Part shown: piece by piece, positions 12,460-35,410 of the stretch
Position numbering within the stretch: the stretch's first letter is position 1
Layout of the letters: each line of letters starts with the position of its first letter
Assembly (NCBI GenBank): GCA_965237775.1
Contig: OZ250155.1
Coordinates: forward strand, 2,718,682 to 2,782,681
Source of the DNA: Dehalococcoidia bacterium
Lineage (GTDB): Bacteria > Chloroflexota > Dehalococcoidia > Lucifugimonadales > UBA3495
Direction: 5' to 3'
DNA: 64,000 nt
Notes under the pieces: generated by a model
The model's input: the letters and a program-made list of their open reading frames with translations, nothing else
Database searches by the model: none
What the model was told of the DNA's origin: nothing
Program-made: the position numbers and the translations under genes

Positions 12460-12550
12460 ACGCACGGCCGCCACACAGGGAGCCCGAACATCCACCTTTA
12501 GCCCACCGCGCCGGGGTGACCCCCGCATCCCATTCCACCGAGGTGAGCCC

Positions 12551-14177: not shown

Positions 14178-14598
14178 CGCTGGTCCGATATCTGACCTGT
14201 GAAACCGGGTCCTACGGGCTCGGACCAGGGAAGAGCCAACGAGAGAACCCGAGTTCTGCCGCGCCGCATGGCGTCGGAAGCACGTCCTGCCGGACATGGC
14301 TAACTCCACCCGCCTGTTGCCCCGTTCCTGACTTCACATTCAAGCATTCATGCATTCATCGTTCCCTTCCGGTCTCGAAGTTGCTGGACCGGGAACCCGT
14401 TACCGGTGGCACTGCCAGACCGAAAGCGAGTCCTGGACTCCGTCCGGGTCCATCTGCCTGCCAGGTTAGGCCAACTGGATGCGGAGGTCGTGCCGCCGGG
14501 TTGGATTTAGGGCCCGGTTCTCTGGTGACGAGAAGGGTGAAAACCGAGACCAATTTATTGGTTCGCGTGCAAAGATTCTGGAATGGTATCATTTGCGA

Positions 14599-17500
14599 AT
14601 GGTGGGCCTACTAAAACGCTCTGCGCCACGCTTGGGCTTGCTGTTGGCGCTCGCGCTCGCCCTTGGAGGGCTTTTTTTCCTCTTTGATCTGTTTCGGGGA
14701 TTGATCTCCTCCGGTCCATCGGACATTTTGGCTGTGAACAACTCGGTCGGCGAAACCAGCCATATTCCAAGCGGCGCCGGTCTCGTAGCCGTTCTGGCTC
14801 CAGCTATGTGCTTCGTGCTGAGCGGCGTGACCGCCTTACTCATGTGGCGATGGCTGACCAGCCGGGAAAATAAGAGGCTGTGGATCATCGTGCTGGGTGG
14901 ATTACCCGCTTTCACGCTGCTTGGTCTGGGGGTTTATCTTGCCGTCTTCGGGCCTACGATCGGCGGCCTCTTCTATGGAGAGGTCCCTTACGACCAGCAC
15001 CCTGTGGAAGTTGCGGGAGTCAAGCCGCTTGGGTTGGCCTTATTGGCTGCATTCCTCCTTTCTGTGGTGTTCGTCGCGATCACCCGGCCCCTCCTCCTCC
15101 CCATCCCCCTGGTGTTGTGGCTGGTGGCAGCGTTGTTCACTGGCATGTTTCAGTCCAACGCCATCTATGGATTGGACCTCTTTACGCACCCAAGCAGATT
15201 GGAGCCAACGGCAGCCTACGCCAACGCCGTGGAACGTTACCGTCCTGTGGAGATCAAGCAGCCAACCATCGAGACCCGCGTCATCGAGACTCCCGCCATA
15301 GCAGCGGCAGCCTACGCCTACGCCGTGGAACGCTACCGGCGGGTGGAGAATCAGCAGCCAGCCATCGAGCAGACCGTGGAGGCAACCAAGCTAATTCCGG
15401 GACCTCCAGACCCTGTGGAAACAGCCCTCGGTACGGCCGGCATTGATGGGCTCCCCGCCCTTGAGAAGTTGCAGTTCCTGGTTGACGCGCTCTGGGACGT
15501 CAACAAAGACGTCAGACAAGAGGCAGTAGCAACCCTGGAAGCGCTGGACGCGGACGTGATACCGCTGGAGACCGGGGGGTTTATTGTATCGTCCGACGAA
15601 TTCGACTTCTGGGCCCCTGGCGCCACCGCGTTCCGGTCGCCAAAGCCAGACGCCATCAAGGTGTTCGAGGTCACCGGCGCGGACCACACTGGGTATCTAC
15701 GCACCGGAGTTGGCGATTCCTATGCCGATGGCCGGTGGCGACAGATTGACTCCCGAAGCATACCTTACGAGGCCGGGACACAACCTCGTGGCCTGGTGAT
15801 CGAGTGGTTGCTGGGCATCTCCGAGCCCGGCGTATCCCTCAGCGGACTAACTATTGCTCCTAACTATTGGAGCCCATTGTTGGCGTGGCCGGCCAGGGAT
15901 GGAATCGGCCGGTTGAGGCAAGACGATGTAACCGTGTCATCCATCGGTCCCGGTAAAACCATCCCCGCCGGCGTGTTGCCCGTATCGCTGGGGGTGCAAC
16001 AGGCCAATTTCGACGGTGGTTACCTGCCGTGGAACGCCACCTTCGAGTCAGAGTCAGCGCTCACCGGATACCAGTGGACTTCCCGGGTCCCACAGTTTTC
16101 CGATGAGGAGCTTCAACGGGCTGCTCTCGCTCCTGGTACGTCATATTTGGGGCTGCCTCCCGGTCTCCCAAACCGTATCACCCAACTTGCGTTGGAGATC
16201 ACCAGCGTAGAAGAGAGTTCATACCTTAAGGCCAAAGCCATCGAAGAATACCTCAGAAACAACTACACGTATGCCTTCGCCGAGCCGAACGACGGGGGCT
16301 CACCACCCGGACAGGACCCGGTGGACTGGTTCCTATTCGACGAGCGGATAGGCACTTGCGGCCAATTCAGCAGCGCATTCGTAGTCCTAGCCCGGTCGGT
16401 TGGTATACCGGCGCGAGTGGTGTCCGGCTGGGTCGTTGGCGAAGTGGGAGCGACCCAGACCGTGTATTCAGACCAGGCCCACCAGTGGGCGGAGGTGCTC
16501 TTCGAGGACCGGGGCTGGGTGATATTCGAACCCTCCGCGGATGGGGCCGCTCCATTCCGGGCCCCGGTTTTGAGCGTCTGGGAGGACGAGTTCCAACGGT
16601 TAGTAGAGGTCCTTCTCTCCGGTGACGAAGAGGAAGACCGGGCTGAAGCGGCCTTCAGACTGCTTGAAATAGCCTCCATCCTGGACTTGCCTACGGGTCG
16701 GGTGTTGGAGCCGTTGGTAGAGGCGCTTATTGCGGACGATTCGGAGATGGTCCAAGCAGCGGCAGTTGACGCCCTCGGACTATTGGGAGACGCGAGGGCT
16801 ATTGGCCCGTTGATCGACCGGCTGGCCAATGATGAACAACCCACGGTCCGTGAAGCAGTGGCGAACTCCCTGGCCAACTTTGAAGGACGAGAAGTGCTGG
16901 AGGCGTTGGTTGAAGCGCTTGCCGATGAAGATGAGCGGGTGCGGAGCGCTGTGGCCCAAGCGCTCGGTGACCTCGGCGACCCGGCGGCCTCCCTTCCGCT
17001 TCTGCATGCGCTCTCCGATGATTATCCAAGGGTCAGAGAGAGCGCCGCCGCAGGGCTAAGGAAGCTCGGGACAGATGTCACGGGATTGGAGAACGGCAAG
17101 TTTGTCATATCCCCGGAGAGCCGCCCGATTACGGTCTTCGGCGGCGGCGCATCCACGAGCCAAGCTTCTAAAGGGGAACGGTTCTCCGTCTTCAAAGTGG
17201 GTGGCGCATTACACACCGGTTACCTAAGAGACGGCGTTGGCGACCTGTACGAAGATGGCCGGTGGGTCCAGGTAGACCTCTTGGATTTACCGTACGATGC
17301 CAACGAAAGCATCGCTGATCTGGGTGTGTCCAGCGAACGGTTAAGGGGCCATTCGCGGGGCCAGTTCAATCCCCCGAGGTGGGTCCCGGAACGAATAAGG
17401 CCAGCCGAGGACTACGAAGACGAAATCACTGTCTCCCCGGTATACACCGGGCCTTCGGATTTGGGAATTCCGGAAGGCGTGATTCCGACCTCGCAGCAAC

Positions 17501-20500
17501 TGGAAAGAGTTGCCGTTCCCGGAGTGTACCGCCCCTATAGCTCTACCTTCGTTGCCGATGACCCGGCGCCGGGACTTACTTGGATCTCGCGGATACCCAT
17601 CTTTTCAGAGGCTCAACTAACCCAGGCCAAACCAGCGGAAGCAAGCGGTTACTTGCAACTGCCTGACGATCTGCCGCCCCGAATTCGGGAGTTAGCGCTG
17701 GAATTCAAGAGAGACTACGACAACCCGTACCTGCGTGCTAGAGCCATCGAAAACTACTTGAAGACAGACTACTCCTACGCCTACTCCCAACCGGGCGGCC
17801 CGAGACTTCCGGCCGGGCAAGACCCGGTAGACTGGTTTCTGTTCGAGAGCAAGGAAGGCACATGCGGCCAATTCAGCAGCGCCTTCGTGTTACTTGCCCG
17901 GTCGGCTGGGATACCGGCAAGGGTCGTGACCGGATGGGCAATCGGAGACGTGGAGGCTTCCCAAGCAGTGTACTCCGACCAGGCCCACCAATGGGCGGAA
18001 GTCCCTTTCCAGAACCTCGGCTGGGTCACTTTCGAACCCACCGCCTCGGGAAGCGCCCGGTCTCGTGCGCCGGAACACCAGGTCTGGAAGGATGAACTTA
18101 ACCGGCTCGCCGGACTCTTGGCGGATTCTCCAGAGGCCAACGTGCGGGCCGAAGCCGCCGGGGAGTTGGCCAGGCTATCGGAGAAAGCAGACCTATACAC
18201 CTCGAAGTTAACCGAGCCATTGGTGTCGTCGATGCGTGATGACTCCTCTGCGCTGGTGCGGGCAGCCGCCGCCGATGCGCTGGGGGAGATTGGGGACCGG
18301 GATTCAATCCCGGCGTTACACGACGCCATAACCGATGAGGAAAGCGGAGTCCGGGAAGCGGTTGGTGAAGCCTTGGAACTCTTCGGGGCCACCAGTATCC
18401 CGCTGGAAAGCGGGGCCAGTGTCTTGTTGCTCAGTGACGCTAAGTTGAGGTTTAACTCCGGGACATCCACCGGCCAGGCCACTAAACCGCCGCACATACC
18501 GGTAATGCAAGTAACAGGAGCTTGGCGCACCAAGTACCTCCGGACCGGTGTTGGAGACGTTTACGAAAATGGCTCATGGAGCTCTTTGGATCCCGTGGTA
18601 CTGCCGTACAGGCAGGATGCGGACATAAACTTACTAGAGCAGTCCCTCGCGGGATCGTCTGGTGTCCGACACCGACCGCCTCGGCCCAGCTCGAAGTTCG
18701 TCGACAAGGGACAATTTCTTGAACCAAGAATCTCCGTCTCTCCGGCGGGACCGGCTCCTTTTTTCCAACCAGGCTCCTTGCCTATTTCTCTGTTTCCACA
18801 CAGTGTCGGGGTCAACGGGGATTATAGGCCGTTCAGCTCCACATTCAGCAGCCAGGAAATCCAGGTCTCCTACTCGTGGGTTTCCCGCGTACCGATTCTC
18901 AAAGAGGGTCATCTCGTCCAGGCGAAGCCCTTCTATTTTCCAGGCTCCACGAACCTTCCAGATAGTTTACCTGATCGCATTCATCAATTGAGCGTTGAAA
19001 TCACAAGAAGACACGAGGGGCCATACCAGAAGGCCAAGGCCATCGAGACCTTCCTGAAAACTCACTACACCTATGCCTTCGCCAACTCGAATGAAGACCG
19101 GGTCACCGAGGGACGCGACCCCGTAGACTGGTTCCTATTCGACCATCGAAAGGGTACTTGCGGCCAGTTCAGCAGCGCTTTCGTCATACTCGCCCGGTCC
19201 GTGGGCATACCTGCCCGCGTGGCCTCCGGATGGGCCATAGATGATGACCGGGGCACCCAAACGGTATACACCGACCAGGCCCATCAATGGGCGGAAGTGG
19301 CCCTGGACGGTCTTGGTTGGGTAACCTTTGAACCGACCGCGTCTGGAGGTGCGCCTGCCCGGACGCCCGGCTCCGGGGAAGCGCAGGGGAATCGACCAGA
19401 CCCGTCCACCGGCGAAACCCAGCCACCGAACGGAAACGCGAACGGACAATTCGGCGGGGCGGAGACTGAGTCCTTGTTAGACGCCATGGCGGCCCACGAT
19501 CCCGACGCCGCAGCGTTGGCGAAAGCTTCCCTGGGCGGTCTGGGAGGAGAAGACTCGGGAGTTCTGGAGTTGGCGGCAAAGCTCCTTTCCAGCGACATTG
19601 AAAGCGTCAGGAACACCGCCGAGGAAGCGTTGGACAGCCTGGGGGCCAAGGTTACTCCGTTAGAGACCGGCGGTTCGGTGATCTCGATGGAAGGCCAGAG
19701 CTATGGGTCGCCGGGCACTTCAACCGGTCAAGCGGCTGAGCCTGACCCTGTCCCCGTATTTCAAGTGACCGGCGCGGCGAACACCAGCTACCTTCGCACG
19801 TCTACGGGTGAGTTCTACGCCAATGGCCGATGGACCCAGTTGGACCCATTCGAGCTGGCATATGGGGGATTGAAAGATGTCCGCCGCCTGGTCCATGAGG
19901 GTCTATCCACCTGGTCGAAGGACATCAACGCGTCCCCTGTGCGCCCTGAGACCGCCCTTCTTGCGTGGCCCAACGAAGTCCCCGCGGGGAAGTATCACCA
20001 GAGCGATCTTACCGTGTCGTCCCACCCTCAGGCGGGAGATTTCCCTCCCGGTGTGTTGCCCATCTCATACCACCTGGACCGAGCCGAACCGGATGGCTCT
20101 TACAGGCCGTTTAGCGCGACTTTCCGAGGGATCTCCCCGCAATCGGAGTATTCTTGGAGGTCGCGGGTCCCCCTCTTTTCGCAAGACCAACTCGCCCGGG
20201 CCAAGACCATCGACGACCCCGCCTACATGCAGTTACCTGATAACTTGCCTAGATTCATTCGCGGCCTGGCCGAGGAGATTACCTGGGGACTACCGGGTCC
20301 CTATGCTAAAGCCAAGGCAATCGAAACATATCTCAGTACTAATTACACCTACGCCTTTGCCTCCCCGGGCGACCGGCCAGCGCCGCCGGGGCGTGACCCG
20401 GTTGACTGGTTCCTGAACGAAACCGGGAAGGGAACATGCGGTCAGTTCAGTAGCGCTTTCGTGTTGATGGCCCGGTCGGTGGGAATTCCGGCGCGGGTGG

Positions 20501-23500: not shown

Positions 23501-24390
23501 AGTTTCGCCTGTATGCCCCAATACGGACACAGCTCGAAATGCGCTTCCCCGACGCCGATTCCGCCACAGACCCGGTGTGGAAGACTGGCGAGCAGGTCCT
23601 GGTCGTATGCACCCTGATCGACGAGGCGGGGGTTCCCCTTTCCGGGATGCCAGTGGACATCACATGGCCGGACTCAGAATTATCCGAGCCGCTGGCGACT
23701 GACCGGGAGGGAAAGCGCGAGGCCTCCTGGTCCGGCGATTCAAGGGGGGACTATCAGGTCAGAGCCGAATCCCACGGAAACGACCTCTATTTGCCCGCCT
23801 CCGCGGTCCGGGAATTCCGCCTTCACGCACCAATCCCGACACACATAGAGATCAGCTTCGACAAATCGGCGGACGACCTGCCGGACATCTGGGGTGTTGG
23901 CGAAGAACTGATGATGGTGTTCACCTTACTGGACGAATCAGGTGAAGCGGTTATCGGCAGGGAGGTTGAAGCGATCATCGGGAATGATCACGCAATCCGG
24001 GTTGTGACCGGCAGCCAGGGAACCTGCAACGCCACGTGGACTGTGGAAGGTCCCGGCGCGTACACGGTGACCGCGGAATTTCAGGGAGATGAAAACTATC
24101 TACCGTCTTCGGCTCATAGGGAGTTCGAAGTCGTTCGCTTCCGGGAGGACGTGGTCCAGCGTTACAACGCCTTCCTGGATTGGGTGCGCGCGAGAGTACC
24201 TAATGTGTCGACTCAGGCGACCCCACGGGAGATGGAGGCGTTGGTCGTCGCCAGCGGCCTGTTCCTGGACCAACGCTCGCTGGAAATCCTAATTTCCAGG
24301 TTTGAAGAGGCGGACTACAGCGAGCATGACATCGGACGCCGCCAGTTCGAGGCGATGTACCGGGCCTGGCGGAATATTGTCGGAGACTGA
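14599..24390 (+). CDS. Giant membrane protein with 4 transglutaminase-like cores, HEAT repeats, Ig-like arrays and a DUF4129-like C-terminus
   Basis: Single ORF (track 14479..24390). The preferred start at 14599 gives MVGLLKRSAPRLGLLLALALAL, a signal-anchor-like N-terminus. There are four copies of GTCGQFSSAF...ARVVSGW...DQAHQWAEV...GWVTFEPT, the Cys-His-Asp transglutaminase core pattern. PBS-lyase/HEAT-like VRxAAAxALGxLGD repeats sit between the cores. A late TM helix is FNWLLWVALPALVVAGTAGGFLGG. The C-terminal ...ADYSEHDIGRRQFEAMYRAW is DUF4129-like. Confidence 0.85.
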   Translation: MVGLLKRSAPRLGLLLALALALGGLFFLFDLFRGLISSGPSDILAVNNSVGETSHIPSGAGLVAVLAPAMCFVLSGVTALLMWRWLTSRENKRLWIIVLGGLPAFTLLGLGVYLAVFGPTIGGLFYGEVPYDQHPVEVAGVKPLGLALLAAFLLSVVFVAITRPLLLPIPLVLWLVAALFTGMFQSNAIYGLDLFTHPSRLEPTAAYANAVERYRPVEIKQPTIETRVIETPAIAAAAYAYAVERYRRVENQQPAIEQTVEATKLIPGPPDPVETALGTAGIDGLPALEKLQFLVDALWDVNKDVRQEAVATLEALDADVIPLETGGFIVSSDEFDFWAPGATAFRSPKPDAIKVFEVTGADHTGYLRTGVGDSYADGRWRQIDSRSIPYEAGTQPRGLVIEWLLGISEPGVSLSGLTIAPNYWSPLLAWPARDGIGRLRQDDVTVSSIGPGKTIPAGVLPVSLGVQQANFDGGYLPWNATFESESALTGYQWTSRVPQFSDEELQRAALAPGTSYLGLPPGLPNRITQLALEITSVEESSYLKAKAIEEYLRNNYTYAFAEPNDGGSPPGQDPVDWFLFDERIGTCGQFSSAFVVLARSVGIPARVVSGWVVGEVGATQTVYSDQAHQWAEVLFEDRGWVIFEPSADGAAPFRAPVLSVWEDEFQRLVEVLLSGDEEEDRAEAAFRLLEIASILDLPTGRVLEPLVEALIADDSEMVQAAAVDALGLLGDARAIGPLIDRLANDEQPTVREAVANSLANFEGREVLEALVEALADEDERVRSAVAQALGDLGDPAASLPLLHALSDDYPRVRESAAAGLRKLGTDVTGLENGKFVISPESRPITVFGGGASTSQASKGERFSVFKVGGALHTGYLRDGVGDLYEDGRWVQVDLLDLPYDANESIADLGVSSERLRGHSRGQFNPPRWVPERIRPAEDYEDEITVSPVYTGPSDLGIPEGVIPTSQQLERVAVPGVYRPYSSTFVADDPAPGLTWISRIPIFSEAQLTQAKPAEASGYLQLPDDLPPRIRELALEFKRDYDNPYLRARAIENYLKTDYSYAYSQPGGPRLPAGQDPVDWFLFESKEGTCGQFSSAFVLLARSAGIPARVVTGWAIGDVEASQAVYSDQAHQWAEVPFQNLGWVTFEPTASGSARSRAPEHQVWKDELNRLAGLLADSPEANVRAEAAGELARLSEKADLYTSKLTEPLVSSMRDDSSALVRAAAADALGEIGDRDSIPALHDAITDEESGVREAVGEALELFGATSIPLESGASVLLLSDAKLRFNSGTSTGQATKPPHIPVMQVTGAWRTKYLRTGVGDVYENGSWSSLDPVVLPYRQDADINLLEQSLAGSSGVRHRPPRPSSKFVDKGQFLEPRISVSPAGPAPFFQPGSLPISLFPHSVGVNGDYRPFSSTFSSQEIQVSYSWVSRVPILKEGHLVQAKPFYFPGSTNLPDSLPDRIHQLSVEITRRHEGPYQKAKAIETFLKTHYTYAFANSNEDRVTEGRDPVDWFLFDHRKGTCGQFSSAFVILARSVGIPARVASGWAIDDDRGTQTVYTDQAHQWAEVALDGLGWVTFEPTASGGAPARTPGSGEAQGNRPDPSTGETQPPNGNANGQFGGAETESLLDAMAAHDPDAAALAKASLGGLGGEDSGVLELAAKLLSSDIESVRNTAEEALDSLGAKVTPLETGGSVISMEGQSYGSPGTSTGQAAEPDPVPVFQVTGAANTSYLRTSTGEFYANGRWTQLDPFELAYGGLKDVRRLVHEGLSTWSKDINASPVRPETALLAWPNEVPAGKYHQSDLTVSSHPQAGDFPPGVLPISYHLDRAEPDGSYRPFSATFRGISPQSEYSWRSRVPLFSQDQLARAKTIDDPAYMQLPDNLPRFIRGLAEEITWGLPGPYAKAKAIETYLSTNYTYAFASPGDRPAPPGRDPVDWFLNETGKGTCGQFSSAFVLMARSVGIPARVVSGWAIDQTQGTQTVLSSQAHQWAEVGFSDLGWVTFEPTAAGGAPSRTSSPLAPLTPRPVTVPEGPTAPTLVPGPGPAQPPAKQGTVTEIIEWPARTRKGVPFTIGGSVMSESGALVDGMGIEIFVNVKKENGGIKVGSGATVRGKFQVQLRIPRTFTAGSYQLIAHAIANETYSESWSDPEIGVYSTTGLEFTGPAEIAVDVPAKFSGRLTQDDGEPVDNREVQVQVDGRTLELVSTDENGMFEFANTFESAGERTVEVEFEEQDFMLGVSASLAVSVTMPTALVLDVPGAIGMDQEFSISGALRDIRGNSLANHTVLLSLNSDAKDPIETDAEGEFRIGLSVDRPGVHTIDAVFVGLGNFEPSESTLTFVVTEPVSLQISGEGPARVGEEYVVNGSLADSRGNPMVHRTVAISTNSLPDTTVQTDAQGQLRLTRTFDRRGIYPTEARFASDGFLQSATSSITVKVTEPVSLRLTGGGDAHVGKDLLIDGALRDAGGNPLAQQTVTVFLNDQVLAPVESDAQGAFHFRIDSVRPGIHTVQAIFQGGGLLEPASSQLSFKATEPVFMRVNGDDLARIAAPYHLTGVLIGPGGSPLPAMPLTIEAQRHPQSALETDAGGRFSWETTFIEETRTTIRIAFPGNAELAPTVVHWPVYIGVPEIVVEPLEPVARGDSLTLRGVVAVGLQIAKDIPITIDGEDAARSNAAGTFVMRHPVPVDHPLGPMKLEIAAPELETTVTLEIVVKSATSIIVTPAEPVRPGHILPIEATLLDDRGLGIPNARVHHGQAAPVTMGPHGVAIFMVQTPAEEGLKAVPLTFRFEGDDFNLPLTYFVGLPVTPAPFNWLLWVALPALVVAGTAGGFLGGRWRRKIPLPTEQSARVMRPIPGPVSPDPEHTLITAELLGPVRTMLEVHFPDPVSDRDPVWKTGEPAVIVCALFDEKGLPLVRAPIDITWPDSESPIRLTTDERGVCESSWTGYSTGDYHVRTEFPGNEDYLAAYAVREFRLYAPIRTQLEMRFPDADSATDPVWKTGEQVLVVCTLIDEAGVPLSGMPVDITWPDSELSEPLATDREGKREASWSGDSRGDYQVRAESHGNDLYLPASAVREFRLHAPIPTHIEISFDKSADDLPDIWGVGEELMMVFTLLDESGEAVIGREVEAIIGNDHAIRVVTGSQGTCNATWTVEGPGAYTVTAEFQGDENYLPSSAHREFEVVRFREDVVQRYNAFLDWVRARVPNVSTQATPREMEALVVASGLFLDQRSLEILISRFEEADYSEHDIGRRQFEAMYRAWRNIVGD
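15650..20630 (+). repeat. Four tandem coding modules (beta-rich domain + transglutaminase core + HEAT linker) inside the giant gene
   Basis: The catalytic Cys codons (TGC in GTCGQF) lie at 16357, 17863, 19159 and 20437, all in frame 1. Spacing is 1506, 1296 and 1278 nt. Module boundaries are approximate. Confidence 0.85.
20760..22990 (+). repeat. Array of ~8 Ig-like/carboxypeptidase-regulatory-like coding repeats (~280-290 nt period)
   Basis: Recurrent units look like VTEPVSLxxxGxGxAxVGxxxxxxGxLxDxxGNPLxxxTVxxxxN....xTDAxGxFxxxxxxxxxGxHTxxAxF. Clear consecutive units start near 21340, 21618, 21900 and 22180. Confidence 0.7.
23221..24135 (+). repeat. Three ~312-nt coding repeats after the late TM helix of the giant gene
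   Basis: Units start at 23221, 23533 and 23845. Each has the form LExxFPDxxSxxDPVWKTGE...ITWPDSE...GDYxVRxExxGNxxYLxxxAVREFRL. Confidence 0.8.
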
Positions 24391-24397
24391 CTCTCCT

Positions 24398-26727
24398 ATG
24401 GTGACCAGGTTACCGTTACGGCCCGCATTGTTCGAAACCGCGTTGGCCATTGCCGCGGCTGTCCTGCTATGGGGTCCTGAACTCTTCTCTCTCCCTCCGG
24501 CGGCTCTCCAATCGGAACTCATGCTATGGGCGGTAGCGGCCGCGGCTGGACTGGCCTTCTTCGTGGACTTCACGCTTTGGGCCCAGGGCGGTTCCAGGCT
24601 GCGGCTGTTGCTGAAGCTGCCCGTTGAATTCAAGCGATGGCTCCTGCTGCCCCTGCTTATCACACGGAGGCTGCTCCGAGACTGCGCTTGTCTCCTGGTG
24701 ATTCTGGGGCTGCTGTCGGTTGCCGCGGCAAACAGGTCCGACCCCAGGCTTTTCAACGACTTGGTTCTCGGCGCTGGCGGCGCACTGGCTCTCCAGGTGG
24801 TAGTCCGGGCGGCCTCCGTCCCCTTTTTCGTGGCCAGTGAAATCTTACGATTCCCTCTGTTTAGACTCGTTGCCTTGGCCGGCGCGTACTACCTCATCAA
24901 CCAGCCGTGGCCCACAAAGTATGGGTTCCCAGACTCGCCATTGCTGCCTGCTTTGCTTTTGGCTGTGGGACTGAGCTATTTCGGTTCCATCCTGCGGAAC
25001 ATTGCCTCGACATCTCACCGATGGACGGCCGAAGAACGGGTTTGGCCGGGAGCGGCAGCGGGATACTTGAGGCTGACCGCCGGGGTCCTAGGAGCGGCAG
25101 CCCTGGGTACGGTGCTCTGGAGTTGCCTGTCAGCCCTGCCAAACGTGAGCGCTTCGCTGCTTGGCCAATGGCCCTACGACCTGGTTGGGACAAGAACTCA
25201 ACCTCCATTCGGCTTGGTATACGAAGCCAGGTATTTGATAGCGGGATTTTGCCTGCTACTGGTCTTCAGCACGAGGCTACCCACCACCATGGGTCCACTA
25301 GATACCGTGAATTACATGCCACTGCTCAAAGCCACTGGTCTAGGGCTCGCCGGCTGCGTGTCGTGGTTGCTGGGGGCGGACCTGGCGCCTTTGGGTGCCT
25401 GCTACTGGTCTTCAGCACGAGGCTACCCACCACCATGGGTCCACTAGATACCGTGGCCACTGGTCTAGGGCTCGCCGGCTGCGTGTCGTGGTTGCTGGGG
25501 GCGGACCTGGCGCCTTTGGGTCATGGCTATGTTCTGCTGGGCGCCATAGTAGGGACGGGGTTGTTTTTCCTTGCTATCTCACGGCTGGCACGCTATTTTT
25601 CAGACTCGCCGAACCCGCTGTTGGGAGACGCCTCCCGCTGGTTGGCCAAGTCCTCCCTCAGGGCCATCCTCCTGGGGACGTTCCTGGCCACGTACGGCCT
25701 CCTTTTGCGCCCCCTCTTTTACGATGTGCTCTGGTTCGCTCCCATTTTCGAATGGTTGGTGGTACTCACATTTGCCTTAGTAGCAATAATGTGGAGCAGG
25801 GCCCGCATCAGGAGAGGCGTTGGCGCCGGCCCCGCTCCTCGCGCGGACTGGACCGAATGGTCGCGGCACGTGCAGACCACCGAAGAAAAGCGGGACCCGC
25901 ACCTTGACGGCCTGATCGCTTATCAACGGCATTTCGTCGAAACTGGTGAATGGCGGCGGATGTGGACCTATATTCTGGGACTTATGCTTCGAAACCAGGT
26001 CTCTATGCAACGCATCCCACCTGTTTTCGAGCCCTTGAGAAGCTGCTGCCTTGCTTCCACCAGGACAGATCTCTGGCCCAGAAGAGCCAGGAGGCTCAGG
26101 AACAGGCGGGAAAAGGCACTCTCGGACACCATTGGTCTGGCGGATGTAGCGCTGTCTTGTCCCAAATTCGAGACGGAAGAACTGGATGAACTCCGGTTAT
26201 GGGCGATAGCGGAGCCCTTTGTGGAATTGGGGGCAGGTCCCACAGAACTGGCCGTGGCACTGTCCAACGCGTATTGGCAGCGTGGAGCGGACCTCAACCA
26301 GGCGATCGATTTGTGGTTCCCCCTTATGACCCTCGAAGACCGTCCCAGGACAAGACTCCTGAGACGCCTGGTGACACTGATATCCCGGTTGCTCAGACGT
26401 GTGCGAAAGGACAGAACGTGGGACAGGGAGCGGCGCATGGTCATCGTCCACGGCGCGGCGTCACACCTCTTCGGCGAGGAGACCATCGACATTCTCACGG
26501 TGGCAATTCTGGACGAGGAGGTTCGAATTGACGACTACTTCTCGCCCTTCTATCCGTGGCGATTATTGCCGGGCGAACCGGTAGAGGTGTGGGAGAATGC
26601 CCGAGGCCTGCCCTGGTTGCGGCACGGCGATGAATTACGCTTCTACGCCGCGTCGACAGACATAAAACGGCGGCCGGTGCTGCCAAAAGACTGCGCTGTA
26701 GCCGAACGGGGACTGATTACCGCATGA
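24398..26727 (+). pseudogene. Polytopic membrane protein with C-terminal soluble domain, reading frame broken by a tandem duplication (or assembly artefact)
   Basis: Frame 2 (24398..25447) carries TM-rich sequence and terminates inside repeat copy 2. Frame 1 resumes sensible sequence exactly at copy 2 and runs to 26727. Removing either repeat copy (146 or 125 nt, both 2 mod 3) gives one ORF of 728 or 735 codons. Confidence 0.65.
25250..25520 (+). repeat. Direct tandem duplication, copy 1 = 146 bp (25250-25395), copy 2 = 125 bp (25396-25520)
   Basis: TGCCTGCTACTGGTCTTCAGCACGAGGCTACCCACCACCATGGGTCCACTAGATACCGTG and GCCACTGGTCTAGGGCTCGCCGGCTGCGTGTCGTGGTTGCTGGGGGCGGACCTGGCGCCTTTGGG occur twice. 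Copy 1 has an extra 21 nt (AATTACATGCCACTGCTCAAA) between them. Confidence 0.95.
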
Positions 26728-27713
26728 GAGAATTCGATATCGAGGAAGCAGGCCGGGTCTGCGATACTATCATCGACCGGGTATCCGAGGTCTTCGTCGG
26801 AAACAGGCTGCTGCTAAGGAAGCTGCTCGCGGCGGCGCTGGCCAACGGGCACGTCTTGTTTGAGGACTATCCCGGCTTGGGAAAGACTCTCCTGGCCAAG
26901 GTTTTCACCAGGGCGATCGGCAGCGAGACCAAACGGGTGCAGTTCACACCCGATCTCCTTCCCGCCGACATACTGGGCACCAACGTTTGGCGGCAAAACG
27001 AAGGGAATTTCCAGCTTGTCAGGGGTCCAGTATTCACCAACGTTCTCTTGGCTGATGAGATTAACCGGGCCCCTCCCAAGACTCAGGCGGCGCTTCTGGA
27101 GGCCATGGAAGAACGCCAGGTCACCATAGACGGACAGACCATGCCGCTCGCCCCACCCTTCCTGGTCATCGCCACCCAGAACCCAATAGAGCAAGAGGGA
27201 ACTTACCCCTTGCCCGAGGCCCAAATGGACCGTTTTCTGTTCCGGCTGGCAACCGGATATCCCGCCAACCGGGAACAGGAAAACGACATCCTGACGCGGC
27301 GTATTAAGTGGCAGAAGGACGATCCTACCGCGGACCTGGAGCCAGCGGTGGACGTTGAAAGCTTCCTGGAGTTGCAGCGCAGTGTCGAGCTAAACATCTA
27401 CGTAGACCAGGTGATGGTGGACTACATTACCCAGTTGGTGCGCTTGACTCGGGCACATCCCCGGATCGCCGTGGGTGTTAGTCCCAGGGGCGGTCTGGCC
27501 CTGCTAAAGGTATCGCGCAGCATGGCGCTCATCCACGGCAGGGACTTCGTGGTCCCGGACGACGTGAAGATGGTTGCCCCTGATGTCCTGGCGCACCGGA
27601 TAATTCTCAATATCGAAGACACCCTTGAGGGTGTCAGACCAGAAGAAGTGATCGACGAGATAGTGGGTCAGGTCCCGGTCCCTACCGAGCTGGGGCGCAG
27701 AGCCACCGGCTGA
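26724..27713 (+). CDS. MoxR-family AAA+ ATPase
   Basis: YPGLGKT Walker A and LLADEINRAPPKTQAALLEAMEERQVT, the hallmark MoxR segment. The ATG overlaps the upstream stop (ATGA). Confidence 0.9.
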   Translation: MREFDIEEAGRVCDTIIDRVSEVFVGNRLLLRKLLAAALANGHVLFEDYPGLGKTLLAKVFTRAIGSETKRVQFTPDLLPADILGTNVWRQNEGNFQLVRGPVFTNVLLADEINRAPPKTQAALLEAMEERQVTIDGQTMPLAPPFLVIATQNPIEQEGTYPLPEAQMDRFLFRLATGYPANREQENDILTRRIKWQKDDPTADLEPAVDVESFLELQRSVELNIYVDQVMVDYITQLVRLTRAHPRIAVGVSPRGGLALLKVSRSMALIHGRDFVVPDDVKMVAPDVLAHRIILNIEDTLEGVRPEEVIDEIVGQVPVPTELGRRATG

Positions 27714-29047
27714 TGTTCTCCGCAGTTCCCACGCGGTGGCTCAGCCTGGCGTTCCTGTTCTTGGTCGCCGGCCTTGCTCTAGGCAACCTGGTCCTGTTGG
27801 CGGCAGCGGTCTTTCTATTGCTGTACGTGTTAATGGGAGCGGGCTTGTCGGCTCCTTCCAGCGTATCGATTCAGCGAACCATGCCCCGCGTGGTCTGTTG
27901 GGCAGGCGATGGGCTGGAAATACAGCGCCGTATCGATTCAGGCTCGGGAATCGGGCTGCTCTTCATCCACGACGAACTGCCGCCCGAGGTCGAAGTGGTC
28001 AGAGGCAACAACTTTCGCCTCGTCTGGAAATGGCCTGGAGAAAAGAGCCATGACCTATCCTACCGGATCGTTTGTCCAAAAAGGGGCGTGTTCCCACTGG
28101 CGGAGACGACGTGGGACTCGGAAGCGCCGTTGGGGTTGCCGCGTCTGAATCACGGGACGGCGGGGCCGGCGATCGAGGTCTCGGTCGTTCCCAGGATACA
28201 GGCAATCAGGAGGGTCAACGCGGTCAGGGGGAGGGCCCACGACCGAATTCCCATGGAAGACGTAGCGGTAACCGGGGCGTCCACCACGGACTTCACCGAG
28301 TTGCGGCCATACACCTTGGGAGACCCAATTCGGGCGATCAACTGGAAGGCCAGCGCGCGCAGTTCCGGCAGTTCTAACCCGCTCCTTGTAAACAGGTATG
28401 AACCCGAGGGGAGAAAAGCCGTCTGGATTTTCCTGGACGGCGCAGACTACATGGATGTGGGTCCCGTGCTTTCTTCCCTCATAGACCACGCTGTGGAAGC
28501 GGCTGGAAGCATCGCCCAATACTACCTTTCCAGGGGTTATACCCTCGGCGCCTACGTGTACAACAGTCCCGGAGATATCCTCACTCCGGAAATGGGCCAA
28601 AAGCAATTCCGCCGGTTGATCGATATGCTGACCAACATCAAACCAGGGCCGCCCACACTGGACCTTCTACAGGCCGTGGAATGGTGCAAGAGCTTCCTCT
28701 TTCGATTACAACCCGAGGTATTCACGATTACCAGGCTGGACGTGCACTACCCCGGACGAGCCGGGAGTGGCCCCTCCCTGGACGGGTTTAACGCGGGTAT
28801 CAAGCGGCTGGTCTCGCTGCGCCCTCACTCCAGGCGGCTTAACCGGGTCCGCGTGGTACACCTGGAACCGCAGGGCTATCACCGGGCGGCAACCGAGCTG
28901 GAAATACAGGCCCAAGGCTTGATTCGGTGGGAGGTCCAACCCATTTACGCTTCCCTCCGCAGGGCTGGAGCTTCGGTGTTGCCCTGGGACCCAGGGCGTG
29001 AAAACTTCACCACTACCCTGATTCGGCACCTCAATACCCAACGGTGA
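27713..29047 (+). CDS. DUF58 domain protein (MoxR partner)
   Basis: TDFTELRPYTLGDPIRAINWKASARS is the canonical DUF58 motif. There are two N-terminal TM helices, and the start overlaps the moxR stop by 1 nt. Confidence 0.8.
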   Translation: MFSAVPTRWLSLAFLFLVAGLALGNLVLLAAAVFLLLYVLMGAGLSAPSSVSIQRTMPRVVCWAGDGLEIQRRIDSGSGIGLLFIHDELPPEVEVVRGNNFRLVWKWPGEKSHDLSYRIVCPKRGVFPLAETTWDSEAPLGLPRLNHGTAGPAIEVSVVPRIQAIRRVNAVRGRAHDRIPMEDVAVTGASTTDFTELRPYTLGDPIRAINWKASARSSGSSNPLLVNRYEPEGRKAVWIFLDGADYMDVGPVLSSLIDHAVEAAGSIAQYYLSRGYTLGAYVYNSPGDILTPEMGQKQFRRLIDMLTNIKPGPPTLDLLQAVEWCKSFLFRLQPEVFTITRLDVHYPGRAGSGPSLDGFNAGIKRLVSLRPHSRRLNRVRVVHLEPQGYHRAATELEIQAQGLIRWEVQPIYASLRRAGASVLPWDPGRENFTTTLIRHLNTQR

Positions 29048-29051
29048 CCTG

Positions 29052-29747
29052 ATGGGCCGGCTACTGGTTGTAGAGTCGCTGTTGCTCGCCTGCCTGTTGT
29101 TGCTAGCAGGTTATGTATTCTGGGAGACCCTTGGCCTGGTTCTGGGCCTCGACGGAGTGTGGCACAGCCTGATCGACGCGCGAGTATCTGACAGATCTGA
29201 TCTCGCGTTGTTTGTCCTGGTGCTTTTCGTCGTTTGCTGCTTGCCAATCGCCATCTATTGGTTCCTGCAGTTCATCGGAATGACCAGAACGTCGTTTTGG
29301 AGTGTGACCCTGGCCGCTCTGGCGCCCCAGATTCCGGCGGTTTTGTCCTACAACCAATTGGACTGGCCTTCCTTTTGGGTGGACCCCCTGTTCACCACCG
29401 GTCTATCTCCAATCATAGTGGCGTCGCTCCTCTTAGTGTCCTTGGCGCTCCTGGTTTCACTCCATCGGATCGGCGAACTCAGAAGGTTGAAGGCAAGGTT
29501 GGCTGCTCTACGCCTGGATGGGTCCGAGCAGGAAGGGGCGATTGTCAACGAGCTGTTGGTGTTGGGAGGGCTGTCAAGTTCTGCTCTCATCTTAACCGCG
29601 GCGCTCTTGTCTCTAGGAATTGCGTTCGCCCAGATGAAAGACTTGCTCGTTCTTTCACCCTGGACTGTCCTCACCGTCGGCGGGGCTGCGATTCTTCTCC
29701 TCGCGAGCGTGCTGTCACTCTGGCTGCGCCAGACCAGTGAGGAGTGA
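29052..29747 (+). CDS. Small polytopic membrane protein, last gene of the MoxR block
   Basis: 231 aa with 5-6 hydrophobic segments, starting 4 nt after the DUF58 stop. No recognisable catalytic motif. Confidence 0.5.
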   Translation: MGRLLVVESLLLACLLLLAGYVFWETLGLVLGLDGVWHSLIDARVSDRSDLALFVLVLFVVCCLPIAIYWFLQFIGMTRTSFWSVTLAALAPQIPAVLSYNQLDWPSFWVDPLFTTGLSPIIVASLLLVSLALLVSLHRIGELRRLKARLAALRLDGSEQEGAIVNELLVLGGLSSSALILTAALLSLGIAFAQMKDLLVLSPWTVLTVGGAAILLLASVLSLWLRQTSEE

Positions 29748-29874
29748 GAACACCCTAACCAAACAAGCCGCGTGGCTGGACCGCCGTCAAACCACCGGGA
29801 ACCGGGACCACTGGCCAGAAAAAGCCCCTCCCAGCAGGTGGGAGGGGCCGTGCAGTTCAGCGGATACTAGCAGC

Positions 29875-31827
29875 CTACTCTTCGTCGCCGTACTGGGCCT
29901 TCAGGGACTCCACCACCGCCGGGTCGGCCAGGGTTGTAGTGTCGCCCAGGGCCCGGCCCTCGGCTACGTCCCGCAGCAACCGGCGCATGATCTTGCCGCT
30001 CCGGGTCTTGGGAAGTTCCGCCGCGAAGTAAATGTCGTCGGGGCGGCAGATGGGACCGATCTTAGTCGCCACATGCTGCTTTAGCTCGGCGATCAGCGCG
30101 TCGGACGCGGTCACGTGTTCCTTGATAGTCACGAAGGCCACGATGGCCTGGCCTTTAATCTCGTCCGATCGCCCGATGCAAGCGGCTTCAGCCACGTTGG
30201 AGTTGTCCACAAGGGCGCTTTCGATCTCCATGGTGCTTACCCGGTGCGCCGCCACGTTGATCACATCGTCAACCCGGCCCAAAAGCCAGTAATAACCGTC
30301 CTCGTCGATCTTGGCCCCGTCGCCCGTGAAGTAGATGTCGGGGTATTTGGACCAGTACTGTTCGTGGTATCGCTCTGGGTCGCCGTATATGGTCCTGAGC
30401 ATCGAAGGCCAGGGCCTCTTGATGACCAGGTAGCCGCCACCGCCCGGCCCAACCGAGTTTCCAGCCTCGTCCAGCACGTCCACCTCGATGCCGGGGAATG
30501 CGTGAGTAGCTGAACCGGGCTTCAGGGTCGTGATTCCCGGAATAGGCGTGATCAGGATGGAGCCAGTCTCAGTCTGCCACCAGGTGTCCACCACCGGACA
30601 GCGGCCGCCGCCGATGTTCTCCCAATACCATACCCACGCCTCGGGGTTGATCGGTTCGCCGACGCTACCGAGCAGGCGGAGGCTGGACATGTCGTGCTTC
30701 TTCGGAAGGTCCTCACCCCACCTCATGAAGGTGCGGATGGCAGTGGGGGCGGTGTAGAGGATGGTGCAGGCGTACTTCTCGACAATGGCCCAAAACCGGT
30801 CGCGGTCCGGGTAATCGGGAGAGCCTTCGTACATTACTGTGGTTGCGCCATTGGCCAACGGACCATAGACAATGTAGCTGTGTCCGGTGACCCAGCCGAT
30901 ATCGGCGGTGCACCAATACACATCGTCCTCTTTCATGTCGAATACCCACTTGGTGGTGGCATAGGTGCCGGTCAAGTAGCCGCCCGTGGTGTGGACGATT
31001 CCCTTGGGCTTGCCGGTGGTCCCACTGGTATAGAGCATGTACAGCATGTCTTCGCTGTCCATGACCTCCGGCTCGCAGGTCAATGGTTGGTCCTTGACCA
31101 GGTCGTGCCACCAAACGTCGCGGCCATCCACCATCATGTCGTCGCCGGTGCCGGTGCGGCGTACCACGACTACGTTTTCCACAGGTGTGTCGCCGGTGAT
31201 CGAGTCGTCGGCGTTCTGCTTAAGGGGCACCACGTTCCCCCTCCGCCAACCGCCGTCCGCGGTGATCATGACCTTGGACTGAGAGTCGTTGATCCGGTCG
31301 CGCAAAGATTCCGCGCTAAACCCGCCAAACACGATGCTATGGGGAGCCCCGATGCGGGCACAGGCCAACATAGCAACGGGCAACTCCGGGACCATGGGAA
31401 GATATATCGTAACCCGGTCGCCCTTCTTCACTCCCAGACTCTTTAGTCCGTTAGCGAACTTGCCGACTTCCCGGTACAGGTCCTGGTAGGTATAGACCGC
31501 CCAGTCTCCCGGCTCGCCTTCCCAGATGATGGCCGCCTTGTTGCGCCGGGCAGTCTTCAGGTGACGATCGATGCAATTGTAGGAGACATTTAGCTTCCCT
31601 CCCAGGAACCACTTGGCGAAGGGAGGGTCCCAGTCGAGGACCTGGTCCCACTTCTGGAACCAATCAAGCTCCTCGGCCTGCCCGGCCCAAAAGGCCTCCG
31701 GGTCGCGGCGGGCCTCTTCGTAGATCGCGGGGTCGGGCATGTTGGCTTGTTGAACGAAGCCCTCAGGGGGCGGGAAAGACCGGTCCTCCTGCAGTAATGC
31801 TTCGATGCTTCCGGTGTTTTCTACCAT
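29875..31827 (-). CDS. acs: Acetyl-CoA synthetase (AMP-forming)
   Basis: 650 aa with the [14 protein letters not shown]-binding motif. It shows full-length similarity in pattern to Acs (WWQTETG, C-terminal SGKIMRR). Confidence 0.95.
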
Positions 31828-35408: not shown

Positions 35409-35410
35409 TT

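What the first reader, a model, noticed from the sequence alone, without database searches (positions are those of the whole stretch)
14599..29747. Giant four-core transglutaminase-like membrane protein at the head of a MoxR-DUF58 operon
Seen directly: one ORF of ~3260 codons holds, in order, several elements. First, four N-terminal TM segments. Second, a 96-nt coding tandem (15211-15402, AAYANAVERYR...). Third, four tandem modules, each ending in a Cys-His-Asp transglutaminase-like core (Cys codons at 16357, 17863, 19159, 20437) and separated by HEAT repeats. Fourth, a Pro-rich linker, about eight Ig-like repeats, a single TM helix and three further ~104-aa repeats. Fifth, a DUF4129-like end. 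Downstream genes are chained by overlapping stops and starts: a disrupted polytopic membrane protein, MoxR, DUF58 and a small membrane protein. Established knowledge: MoxR ATPases are commonly encoded with DUF58 and either VWA or single-core transglutaminase-like/DUF4129 membrane proteins of unknown function. Inference: four-fold amplification of the catalytic module, with repeat arrays on both sides of a membrane span, is far from the usual single-core architecture. It suggests a very large envelope-associated protease or cross-linking scaffold.
Basis: partly seen in the sequence, partly recalled or inferred. Interest (0 to 1): 0.7.

Follow-up and report, generated by a model that had tools for sequence, protein, structure and literature searches.

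The report
Giant four-headed TgpA-like envelope enzyme operon
A 3,263-residue membrane protein of a Dehalococcoidia bacterium carries four complete copies of the outward-facing domain of the known transglutaminase TgpA; it heads a five-gene operon with a MoxR ATPase and a DUF58 protein that is conserved in at least 74 related genomes, so it is real and apparently undescribed, but it is an enlarged version of a known system.

Summary
One intact ORF (14599-24390, 3,263 aa) has four Transglut_core domains, with Cys codons exactly where reported. It also has HEAT linkers, eight Ig-like repeats, one late TM helix, three more Ig-like repeats and a DUF4129-like end. It is followed by a polytopic membrane protein, MoxR, DUF58 and a small membrane protein.

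Corrections:
- The triad is Cys-His-Glu, not Cys-His-Asp.
- Hydropathy gives five N-terminal TM helices, not four.
- Only two of the four gene junctions overlap.
- The 'disrupted' membrane gene carries an extra 125-nt imperfect tandem copy. This copy is absent from an otherwise identical sister assembly, so it is an artefact or a minor variant.

Each ~320-aa module is a whole TgpA periplasmic domain (AF2 pTM 0.90; Foldseek 6G49, E 1e-14). The modules are only 47-52% identical to each other, so they are old duplications and not an assembly expansion. The five-gene block recurs in 74 Dehalococcoidia/Chloroflexota loci, some from sponges, with 2-4 cores per protein. N-terminal cores often lack Cys; the last core almost always keeps it.

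Charge distribution and a near Cys-free ectodomain place the cores outside the cell and the DUF4129 tail inside.

Verdict: a new, lineage-specific, multi-headed variant of the TgpA/MoxR/DUF58 system. Its chemistry and substrate are unknown.

The parts
14599..24390 (+). Giant TgpA-like gene, 3,263 aa. ATG 14599 is the likely start; the ORF is open from 14479.
   Evidence: 100% identical to database protein P0001 and to sister assembly L075.
14599..15165 (+). N-terminal membrane anchor, aa 1-189. Five predicted TM helices at about aa 12-32, 59-83, 94-118, 143-161 and 165-185.
   Evidence: Kyte-Doolittle scan and K/R distribution. No Pfam DUF3488 hit.
15211..15402 (+). Diverged 2 x 96-nt (2 x 32-aa) coding tandem, AAYA(N/Y)AVERYR...
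   Evidence: 64/96 nt and 19/32 aa identical. Not scored by TRF.
15562..16539 (+). Module 1 (aa 322-647): TgpA-ectodomain copy. Cys587 codon at 16357; triad Cys-His-Glu.
16576..17082 (+). HEAT-repeat linker 1 (aa ~660-828).
   Evidence: Pfam HEAT_2 and HEAT best stretches at aa 737-821 and 766-793.
17083..18045 (+). Module 2 (aa 829-1149). Cys1089 codon at 17863; Cys-His-Glu.
18076..18399 (+). HEAT-repeat linker 2 (aa ~1160-1267).
   Evidence: HEAT_EZ at aa 1184-1231 and HEAT_PBS at aa 1220-1245.
18400..19341 (+). Module 3 (aa 1268-1581). Cys1521 codon at 19159; Cys-His-Glu.
19342..19656 (+). Linker 3 (aa 1582-1686): a low-complexity Gly/Pro/Asn stretch followed by one or two HEAT-like helix pairs.
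   Evidence: Read from the translation. No separate Pfam stretch was reported.
19657..20619 (+). Module 4 (aa 1687-2007). Cys1947 codon at 20437; Cys-His-Glu. This module was modelled.
   Evidence: PDB sequence hit to 6G49, E 8e-12. AF2 pLDDT 87.4, pTM 0.90. Foldseek 6G49, E 1e-14, TM 0.68.
20620..20754 (+). Pro-rich linker (aa 2008-2052).
   Evidence: Translation.
20755..23016 (+). Eight Ig-like repeats (aa 2053-2806), matching Big_1, CarboxypepD_reg and MG-like models.
   Evidence: Pfam. Repeat starts located.
23017..23085 (+). Single TM helix (aa 2807-2829), followed by GRWRRK.
   Evidence: Basic residues after this helix are conserved in homologues.
23221..24138 (+). Three ~100-aa Ig-like repeats (Big_3_5/Big_1-like; aa 2875-3180), predicted cytoplasmic.
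   Evidence: Cys content supports the location.
24139..24387 (+). DUF4129-like C-terminal domain (aa 3181-3263). It is the most conserved tail segment; its motif [SA]RFEEADY was one of the patterns used in the genome scan.
   Evidence: 23 bits against a cut-off of 24.8, covering profile positions 1-69 of 69. Three homologues carry a precomputed PF13559 hit. Scan pattern.
24398..26727 (+). Polytopic membrane protein 'mem' with no known family. It is 734 aa when intact: about 10-11 TM helices plus a ~300-aa C-terminal domain. In this window it is frame-shifted by an extra 125 nt.
   Evidence: No Pfam or NCBIfam hit.
25250..25521 (+). Imperfect tandem duplication: copy 1 is 25250-25396 (147 nt), copy 2 is 25396-25521 (126 nt, lacking the 21 nt that encode the conserved NYMPLLK).
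   Evidence: Absent from the otherwise identical assembly L075. NYMPLLK is conserved in homologues.
26724..27713 (+). MoxR-type AAA+ ATPase, 329 aa. Its start overlaps the mem stop (ATGA).
   Evidence: AAA_3, E 7e-64; AAA_lid_2, E 2e-24. 76-98% identical across loci.
27713..29047 (+). DUF58 protein, 444 aa, with an N-terminal TM hairpin. Its start overlaps the MoxR stop (TGATG).
   Evidence: D-x-A-x-Y occupies the expected MIDAS position.
29052..29747 (+). Small multi-TM protein, 231 aa, no known family. It is the last gene of the conserved block.
   Evidence: Conserved downstream of DUF58 in most loci.

Best explanation
The gene encodes an enlarged, multi-headed relative of TgpA, the membrane transglutaminase that P. 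aeruginosa encodes together with MoxR and DUF58.

Shown:
- Four complete TgpA-type ectodomains are present. Each has a beta-rich subdomain and a papain-like Transglut_core with an intact Cys-His-Glu triad.
- The ectodomains are strung together by HEAT repeats and followed by eight Ig-like domains, one TM helix, three Ig-like domains and a DUF4129-like end.
- The gene heads a five-gene block (giant protein, 734-aa polytopic protein, MoxR, DUF58, 231-aa membrane protein) that is conserved across a Dehalococcoidia clade.

Inferred from charge distribution and cysteine content:
- Five N-terminal helices plus the late helix place the four cores, the HEAT linkers and the eight Ig domains outside the cytoplasmic membrane.
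- The three-Ig plus DUF4129 tail, MoxR, the DUF58 domain and the C-terminal domain of the polytopic protein are all cytoplasmic.

Inferred mechanism:
- The outward-facing Cys nucleophiles carry out acyl-transfer chemistry on envelope or extracellular proteins. This could be transamidation/cross-linking, as measured in vitro for TgpA, or the related hydrolysis or deamidation.
- Several heads on one stalk would give multivalent or processive action on a polymeric substrate.
- The MoxR/DUF58 pair acts from the cytoplasmic side, on the DUF4129 tail and/or the partner membrane proteins, to assemble, remodel or gate the machine.
- In relatives whose N-terminal cores have lost Cys, those heads probably only bind substrate.
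For: Architecture and exact motif positions.

Link to TgpA:
- The only PDB sequence hit is the TgpA periplasmic domain 6G49 (E 8e-12). Cys, His and Glu align with the TgpA triad.
- The AF2 model of module 4 has pLDDT 87.4 and pTM 0.90. Its best Foldseek hits are 6G49/6G4H over 325 columns, E 1e-14, TM 0.68.
- A 580-aa single-core DUF3488 + Transglut_core protein is 36% identical over the whole module and also has FEPT.

Topology:
- K/R-rich N-terminus and TM2-3 loop, and GRWRRK after the last TM.
- In 19 family members the region between the anchors has 35 catalytic-motif Cys and only 10 other Cys in 42,691 residues. The tail has 48 Cys in 5,842 residues.
- TgpA has six TM helices and a periplasmic domain shown by protease shaving. 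It has Ca-independent transglutaminase activity in vitro and lies in an operon with PA2875 (the MoxR homologue) and PA2874 (the DUF58 homologue) (PMC3507681).

Conservation:
- The five-gene block is present in nearly all of 74 Dehalococcoidia/Chloroflexota loci, while the flanks differ.
- There are 2-4 cores per protein. The last core is almost always Cys-His-Glu.

Not an artefact:
- Modules are 47-52% aa and 53-57% nt identical.
- A second assembly is 100% identical across the gene.
Against: - No activity, substrate or localisation data exist for this family. The choice between transglutaminase and protease or deamidase is open.
- Topology rests on a hydropathy scan, the positive-inside rule and cysteine statistics, not on a dedicated predictor or an experiment.
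- It places three Ig-like domains in the cytoplasm, which is unusual.
- HEAT repeats are more typical of cytoplasmic proteins.
- The catalytic Asp is replaced by Glu, and the effect is untested.
- The role of MoxR/DUF58 is inferred only from gene linkage and predicted location.
- The N-terminal anchor does not match Pfam DUF3488 and shows no BLAST similarity to that of the single-core relative.
Confidence: 0.55

Rival explanations
1. Cytoplasm-facing, ATP-dependent degradation machine. Zhang and Aravind (2012) proposed this for MoxR-vWA-YebA/TGL operons. DUF58 (vWA-like) would recruit substrates, MoxR would unfold them, and the transglutaminase-like cores, facing the cytoplasm, would cleave them. 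Four cores would simply raise proteolytic capacity.
For: - The model is published for the same three-gene association (PMC3495828).
- MoxR has Walker B VLLADE and a GLGKT P-loop and is very strongly conserved, at 76-98% identity.
- HEAT repeats are usually cytoplasmic.
Against: - The positive-inside pattern at both ends of the protein puts the cores outside.
- The segment carrying the cores is almost Cys-free apart from the nucleophiles, while the tail has a normal Cys content.
- Eight Big_1/CarboxypepD_reg-type domains follow the cores.
- The homologous TgpA domain was found experimentally on the periplasmic side (PMC3507681).
Confidence: 0.1
2. Mainly a non-catalytic surface scaffold or adhesin of sponge symbionts. 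The TgpA-like heads, HEAT repeats and Ig repeats would serve as binding modules for host matrix or symbiont envelope proteins. Catalysis would be dispensable or confined to one head.
For: - In most relatives the N-terminal cores have lost Cys: SHD 36, AHD 12, DHD 4.
- Several loci come from sponge MAGs: APA_bin from Aplysina aerophoba and SB0661_bin from Ircinia ramosa.
- Many others have the naming style of long-read sponge metagenome projects.
- Repeat-rich 'eukaryote-like' proteins are a known theme in sponge symbionts (own knowledge).
Against: - In this protein and its close relatives all four triads are intact, and the surrounding motifs are nearly identical.
- Across the family the last core almost always keeps Cys-His-Glu.
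- The only cysteines tolerated in the ectodomain are the nucleophiles.
- All of this points to selection for catalysis.
Confidence: 0.2
3. Assembly artefact or decaying pseudogene. The four modules would come from mis-assembled repeats, and the operon would be non-functional because its second gene is frame-shifted.
For: A 100%-identical 147/126-nt tandem duplication frame-shifts the second gene in this window.
Against: - The modules share at most 24 identical nucleotides in a row and are 53-57% nt identical.
- Close relatives show one-to-one module orthology at 66-95% identity.
- The architecture is conserved in 74 loci, many of them Mb-scale contigs.
- A second assembly is 100% identical over the giant gene and has the second gene intact at 734 aa.
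Confidence: 0.02

Closest known systems
TgpA (PA2873) of Pseudomonas aeruginosa and its PA2875(MoxR)-PA2874(DUF58)-tgpA operon; YebA-like transglutaminase-like membrane proteins
   Same: - Same ectodomain fold and sequence family.
- Same overall plan: N-terminal TM bundle, outward domain, one more TM, then a C-terminal DUF4129-type tail.
- Same total of six predicted TM helices (PMC3507681).
- Same linkage to a MoxR AAA+ ATPase and a DUF58 protein.
   Different: - Four ectodomains instead of one.
- HEAT-repeat linkers, eight Ig-like domains outside and three inside.
- 3,263 aa against 688 aa.
- Triad Cys-His-Glu instead of Cys-His-Asp.
- The N-terminal anchor does not match DUF3488.
- Gene order is giant-mem-MoxR-DUF58-small rather than MoxR-DUF58-tgpA.
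- Two extra conserved membrane proteins of no known family.
PFNA gene cluster of Bifidobacterium (pkb2, fn3, aaa-atp/MoxR, duf58, tgm)
   Same: - A MoxR + DUF58 + transglutaminase-like membrane protein core is combined with beta-sandwich (FN3/Ig-type) repeats.
- It occurs in a host-associated bacterium (PMC8430577 and PMC12067865).
   Different: - In PFNA the beta-sandwich repeats are on a separate FN3 protein, and a Ser/Thr kinase is part of the cluster.
- Here the repeats are fused to the enzyme, there is no kinase, and the catalytic domain is multiplied.
MoxR-vWA-YebA 'membrane-proximal degradation system' model (Zhang and Aravind 2012)
   Same: Same three protein families encoded together, and the same idea that inactive transglutaminase-like copies act as peptide binders (PMC3495828).
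   Different: That model places the catalytic domain in a cytoplasmic loop next to MoxR. Here the evidence places it outside the membrane.

Membership tests
Transglutaminase-like superfamily (Pfam PF01841 Transglut_core) | Significant match to the Transglut_core profile. | tested here: met
   Four stretches, whole-protein E 1.6e-110, 363 bits against a cut-off of 23.
Transglutaminase-like superfamily (Pfam PF01841 Transglut_core) | Catalytic Cys-His-Asp triad. | tested here: inconclusive
   Cys and His are present in all four cores. The Asp position is Glu in all four (FEPT/FEPS against DPT of TgpA). Glu is chemically similar, but its function here is untested.
TgpA/YebA-type membrane transglutaminase | Ectodomain homologous in sequence and fold to the TgpA periplasmic domain. 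| tested here: met
   phmmer hit to 6G49, E 8e-12. Foldseek 6G49, E 1e-14, TM 0.68 over 325 columns, with a model of pTM 0.90.
TgpA/YebA-type membrane transglutaminase | N-terminal polytopic DUF3488 (PF11992) anchor. | tested here: not met
   No PF11992 hit at E <= 5. No BLAST similarity to the anchor of a DUF3488-bearing relative. Five TM helices are nevertheless present.
TgpA/YebA-type membrane transglutaminase | C-terminal TM helix followed by DUF4129 (PF13559). | tested here: inconclusive
   The TM helix is present. DUF4129 scores 23.0 bits against a cut-off of 24.8 but covers profile positions 1-69 of 69. Homologues P0010, P0023 and P0027 carry precomputed PF13559 hits.
TgpA/YebA-type membrane transglutaminase | One catalytic ectodomain per protein. 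| tested here: not met
   Four here; 2-4 across 74 related loci.
TgpA/YebA-type membrane transglutaminase | Encoded next to MoxR and DUF58 genes. | tested here: met
TgpA/YebA-type membrane transglutaminase | Protein-glutamine gamma-glutamyltransferase activity. | not testable with these tools
   Needs a biochemical assay. For TgpA it was shown in vitro (PMC3507681).
MoxR AAA+ ATPase (MRP-type, DUF58-associated) | AAA_3 core plus AAA_lid_2, with an adjacent DUF58 gene. | tested here: met
   AAA_3, E 7e-64; AAA_lid_2, E 2e-24; DUF58 46.9 bits against 23.4. The two genes overlap by 1 nt.
Bifidobacterium PFNA cluster | Ser/Thr kinase (pkb2) and a separate FN3 protein in the cluster. | tested here: not met
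   Pfam scans of all five genes of the block and of the flanking genes on both sides show no kinase and no separate FN3 protein.
MoxR-vWA-beta-propeller ternary conflict systems / known anti-phage defence systems | bpMoxR-type ATPase with vWA and beta-propeller partners; match to defence-system models. | tested here: not met
   bpMoxR gives only 30 bits, far below AAA_3 at 214 bits. There is no beta-propeller gene. The MoxR protein has no PADLOC hit.

The most novel reading that the evidence does not exclude
The operon encodes a previously unrecognised cell-surface 'multi-head cross-linking machine' of sponge-associated Dehalococcoidia. Four outward-facing Cys-His-Glu heads on an Ig-domain stalk would covalently stitch a proteinaceous envelope, or tether the symbiont to host matrix proteins. 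Activity would be switched from inside the cell by MoxR/DUF58 acting through the cytoplasmic Ig-DUF4129 tail and two membrane proteins of no known family. This would amount to inside-out control of an extracellular enzyme by an AAA+ ATPase.
Probability: 0.15. Interest if true: 0.8.

Novelty: new variant of a known kind. Interest (0 to 1): 0.5.

Why it matters
MoxR-DUF58-transglutaminase operons are widespread, and TgpA is essential in P. aeruginosa, yet their function is unresolved. Two published views conflict: a cytoplasmic ATP-dependent protease and a periplasmic transglutaminase.

This family offers a natural experiment bearing on that question:
- The ectodomain is multiplied 2-4 times.
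- The N-terminal copies have repeatedly lost only the Cys.
- The last copy is always intact.
- The whole outward region is purged of every non-catalytic cysteine.

These features argue for extracytoplasmic Cys chemistry and give clear variants to test.

The family also adds two conserved membrane proteins of no known family to the system. It may be relevant to how abundant sponge symbionts build or anchor their envelope.

Tried and rejected
- TRF on 14000-30000 found no tandem arrays. The 96-nt tandem is too diverged and the modules are not DNA-level repeats.
- A BLASTP self-comparison returned only the identity hit, so the modules were aligned explicitly instead.
- An exact look-up of P0001 in the contig index failed, and cluster look-ups gave no names. 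The organism was inferred from the genome scan.
- AF2 of the 734-aa polytopic partner was poor (pLDDT 56, pTM 0.33), so no fold search was run on it.
- Pfam and NCBIfam gave nothing for that protein, for ten of its remote relatives or for the 231-aa protein.
- The profile search of 1.84 billion representatives found only 231 relatives of the polytopic protein, none informative.
- Assigning modules of distant homologues to particular window modules failed. All pairs are about 40-55% identical, so the order and number of duplication events are unresolved.
- The third protein search, with the module profile, returned mostly gene fragments and single-core proteins. It could not show whether multi-core proteins exist outside this clade.
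- Literature searches for sponge/Dehalococcoidia/transglutaminase and for tandem transglutaminase-like domains found nothing relevant.
- A promoter scan of the 420-nt upstream gap found no sigma-70-like site.
- Rfam found only a tRNA in the window.
- Known defence-system membership was rejected.


Full report
**1. What is in the sequence**

An ORF is open from 14479 to 24390 on the + strand. The first ATG followed by a hydrophobic N-terminus is at 14599, which gives 3,263 residues.

Pfam reports the following:
- four Transglut_core stretches (E 1.6e-110);
- HEAT_2, HEAT, HEAT_PBS and HEAT_EZ;
- Big_1 (4 stretches), Big_3_5 (3) and CarboxypepD_reg (2);
- a sub-threshold DUF4129 at the extreme C-terminus.

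The motif GTCGQFSSAF occurs four times.

The 2 x 96-nt coding tandem at 15211-15402 is real but diverged, at 64/96 nt and 19/32 aa. TRF does not report it.

Downstream genes:
- a polytopic membrane gene, 24398-26727;
- MoxR (AAA_3, E 7e-64), 26724-27713;
- DUF58, 27713-29047;
- a 231-aa multi-TM protein, 29052-29747.

**2. Corrections to the observation**

(a) In the alignment to the TgpA structure sequence, the third triad residue is Glu in all four cores. WVTFEPT lines up with WLSVDPT.

(b) Hydropathy gives five N-terminal helices, not four. The 50-residue hydrophobic stretch at aa 136-185 is two helices split by Thr-Arg-Pro.

(c) Only two junctions overlap: ATGA at mem/MoxR and TGATG at MoxR/DUF58. 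The other two have gaps of 7 and 4 nt.

(d) The 'disrupted' membrane gene is broken by a perfect but imperfectly tandem duplication. Copy 1 is 25250-25396. Copy 2 is 25396-25521 and lacks 21 nt.
- Removing the extra 125 nt restores a 734-aa protein identical to database protein P0039.
- The 21 nt missing from copy 2 encode NYMPLLK, which is conserved in all homologues.
- A sister assembly (L075, a 4.83-Mb contig) is 100% identical to the window over 14398-25396. It is identical again over 25396-36727 apart from that one gap.
- The lesion is therefore an assembly artefact or a minor population variant, not a fixed pseudogene.

**3. The four modules are real and old**

The modules are aa 322-647, 829-1149, 1268-1581 and 1687-2007.
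- They are 47-52% identical in protein and 53-57% identical in DNA. The longest shared exact DNA word is 24 nt.
- Close relatives show one-to-one orthology of each module, at 66-95% identity.
- The whole gene is identical in a second assembly.

An assembly expansion is excluded.

**4. What each module is**

- The only solved structure matched by sequence is the periplasmic domain of P. aeruginosa TgpA (6G49, E 8e-12).
- An AlphaFold2 model of module 4, built from an 18-sequence module alignment, is confident: pLDDT 87.4, pTM 0.90.
- Its best Foldseek hits are 6G49 and 6G4H across 325 columns, E 1e-14, TM 0.68 normalised to the target. Other transglutaminase-like cysteine proteases come far behind.

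Each module is therefore a complete TgpA ectodomain, with a beta-rich subdomain and a papain-like core, not just a catalytic core. The nearest single-core relative recovered is an ordinary 580-aa DUF3488 + Transglut_core protein. It is 36% identical over the module and also has FEPT.

**5. Family and context**

A protein search found about 30 clusters of 1,946-3,639 aa with the same domain set. One of them is a 100% match on a 5.12-Mb contig.

A scan of one genome per prokaryotic species found 185 matching stretches. The best 74 loci are all Dehalococcoidia or Chloroflexota MAGs.
- Two have bin-name prefixes (APA_bin, SB0661_bin) that a paper assigns to MAGs from the sponges Aplysina aerophoba and Ircinia ramosa.
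- Many others have the naming style of HiFi/metaMDBG sponge metagenome projects. The link to those projects is my inference.

tblastn shows the same five-gene order in nearly every locus with enough flank: giant, mem, MoxR, DUF58, small TM. The flanking genes are shared only with the two closest relatives. This is a conserved functional block.

**6. Core number and state across the family**

| Cores per protein | Loci (window included) |
|---|---|
| 4 | 13 |
| 3 | 37 |
| 2 | 22 |
| 1 | 3 |

Several of the low counts come from ORFs truncated by frameshifts.

| Triad | Cores |
|---|---|
| Cys-His-Glu | 130 |
| Cys-His-Asp | 12 |
| Ser-His-Asp | 36 |
| Ala-His-Asp | 12 |
| Asp-His-Asp | 4 |

- The Cys-less cores are mostly the N-terminal ones. 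They keep His and, curiously, have Asp rather than Glu.
- The last core is almost always Cys-His-Glu.
- Four intact triads occur only in the window's own clade. A second four-core clade has two Cys-less heads.

**7. Topology (inferred)**

- K/R residues cluster at the N-terminus, in the TM2-3 loop (RWLTSRENKR) and right after the last helix (GRWRRK). The long segment between TM5 and the last helix has no such signal at its borders.
- With five plus one helices this consistently puts the cores, HEAT linkers and eight Ig domains outside, and the three Ig plus DUF4129 tail inside.
- Independent support comes from cysteine content. This protein has nine cysteines: one in TM2, the four nucleophiles and four in the tail.
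- In 19 family members the outward segment has 35 catalytic-motif Cys and only 10 others in 42,691 residues. The tail has 48 in 5,842.
- This matches TgpA, which has six helices and a periplasmic domain supported by protease shaving (PMC3507681).
- It argues against placing the catalytic domain in the cytoplasm, as an earlier comparative-genomics model did (PMC3495828).

**8. Partners**

- MoxR has Walker B VLLADE and a GLGKT P-loop, and is 76-98% identical across loci.
- DUF58 has an N-terminal TM hairpin. It has D-x-A-x-Y where vWA domains have the DxSxS metal site, in 66 loci. The equivalence of these positions is inferred.
- The 734-aa polytopic protein and the 231-aa protein match no Pfam or NCBIfam model.
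- The polytopic protein has only 231 relatives among 1.84 billion representatives. Ten remote relatives tested have no Pfam domain.
- Its AF2 model is too poor to use.

**9. Most likely mechanism**

An outward-facing, multivalent Cys-dependent acyl-transferase or hydrolase acts on envelope or extracellular proteins. It is held away from the membrane by an Ig stalk. It is assembled or gated from the cytoplasm by MoxR/DUF58 through the DUF4129 tail and the partner membrane proteins.

The identity as an expanded TgpA-type system is well supported. The chemistry, the substrate and the role of MoxR are inferences.

Rivals:
- a cytoplasmic degradation machine, disfavoured by topology;
- a largely non-catalytic adhesin or scaffold, disfavoured by the intact triads and the Cys purge, though Cys-less heads in relatives probably only bind;
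- an artefact, refuted.

**10. Novelty**

The three-family association (MoxR, DUF58, transglutaminase-like membrane protein) is known from TgpA, from YebA-like proteins and from the Bifidobacterium PFNA cluster.

I found no description of multi-ectodomain forms, of the HEAT/Ig fusions or of the two extra conserved membrane proteins. The literature tool does not cover everything, and I could not survey domain counts across all databases.

I rate it a new variant of a known kind, of moderate interest.

Noticed in passing
window 42575-61857 (lower GC, 0.52-0.55): A defence island. It contains a BrxH/DrmD-like SNF2 helicase (42575-45967), a ThsA-like STALD protein (50228-51130, - strand), SspA/DndA (51243-52409, - strand), SspB (52479-53495), SspC (53482-56886) and SspD (56870-57712). 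These are followed by a PbeA/type IV restriction-like protein (57927-59180) and an MzaB-like HATPase_c_3 protein (59159-61033). The Ssp genes indicate an SspABCD-type DNA phosphorothioation system.
   Followed up: partly
window 25250-25521: A 100%-identical imperfect tandem duplication (147 nt + 126 nt) frame-shifts the 734-aa membrane-protein gene. It is absent from an otherwise identical 4.83-Mb sister assembly. It is probably a long-read metagenome assembly error or a minor structural variant.
   Followed up: yes
loci L001-L074, giant-protein homologues: Cores that keep the catalytic Cys nearly always have Glu as the third triad residue (130 CHE against 12 CHD). Cores that lost Cys nearly always have Asp (SHD, AHD, DHD). 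This coupling is unexplained.
   Followed up: partly
window 27713-29047 (DUF58), aa ~238-247: After a hydrophobic strand the DUF58 protein has D-G-A-D-Y where vWA domains carry the DxSxS metal-binding motif. D-x-A-x-Y is conserved in 66 related loci, which suggests a metal-site-less vWA-like partner. The equivalence of positions is inferred.
   Followed up: partly
window 8618-14177: Upstream of the operon lie an ABC-2/GldG-like 'ABC_transp_aux' protein (8618-11491), a DUF4340 protein (11488-12459) and an amidase (12717-14177). They are conserved only in the two closest relatives, so they are not part of the block.
   Followed up: yes
window 14178-14598: A 420-nt non-coding gap precedes the giant gene. 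It has no sigma-70-like promoter match and no Rfam hit. The regulatory signals are unknown.
   Followed up: partly
window 33935-34009 (- strand): A tRNA-Asn (GTT), the only RNA gene detected in the window.
   Followed up: no
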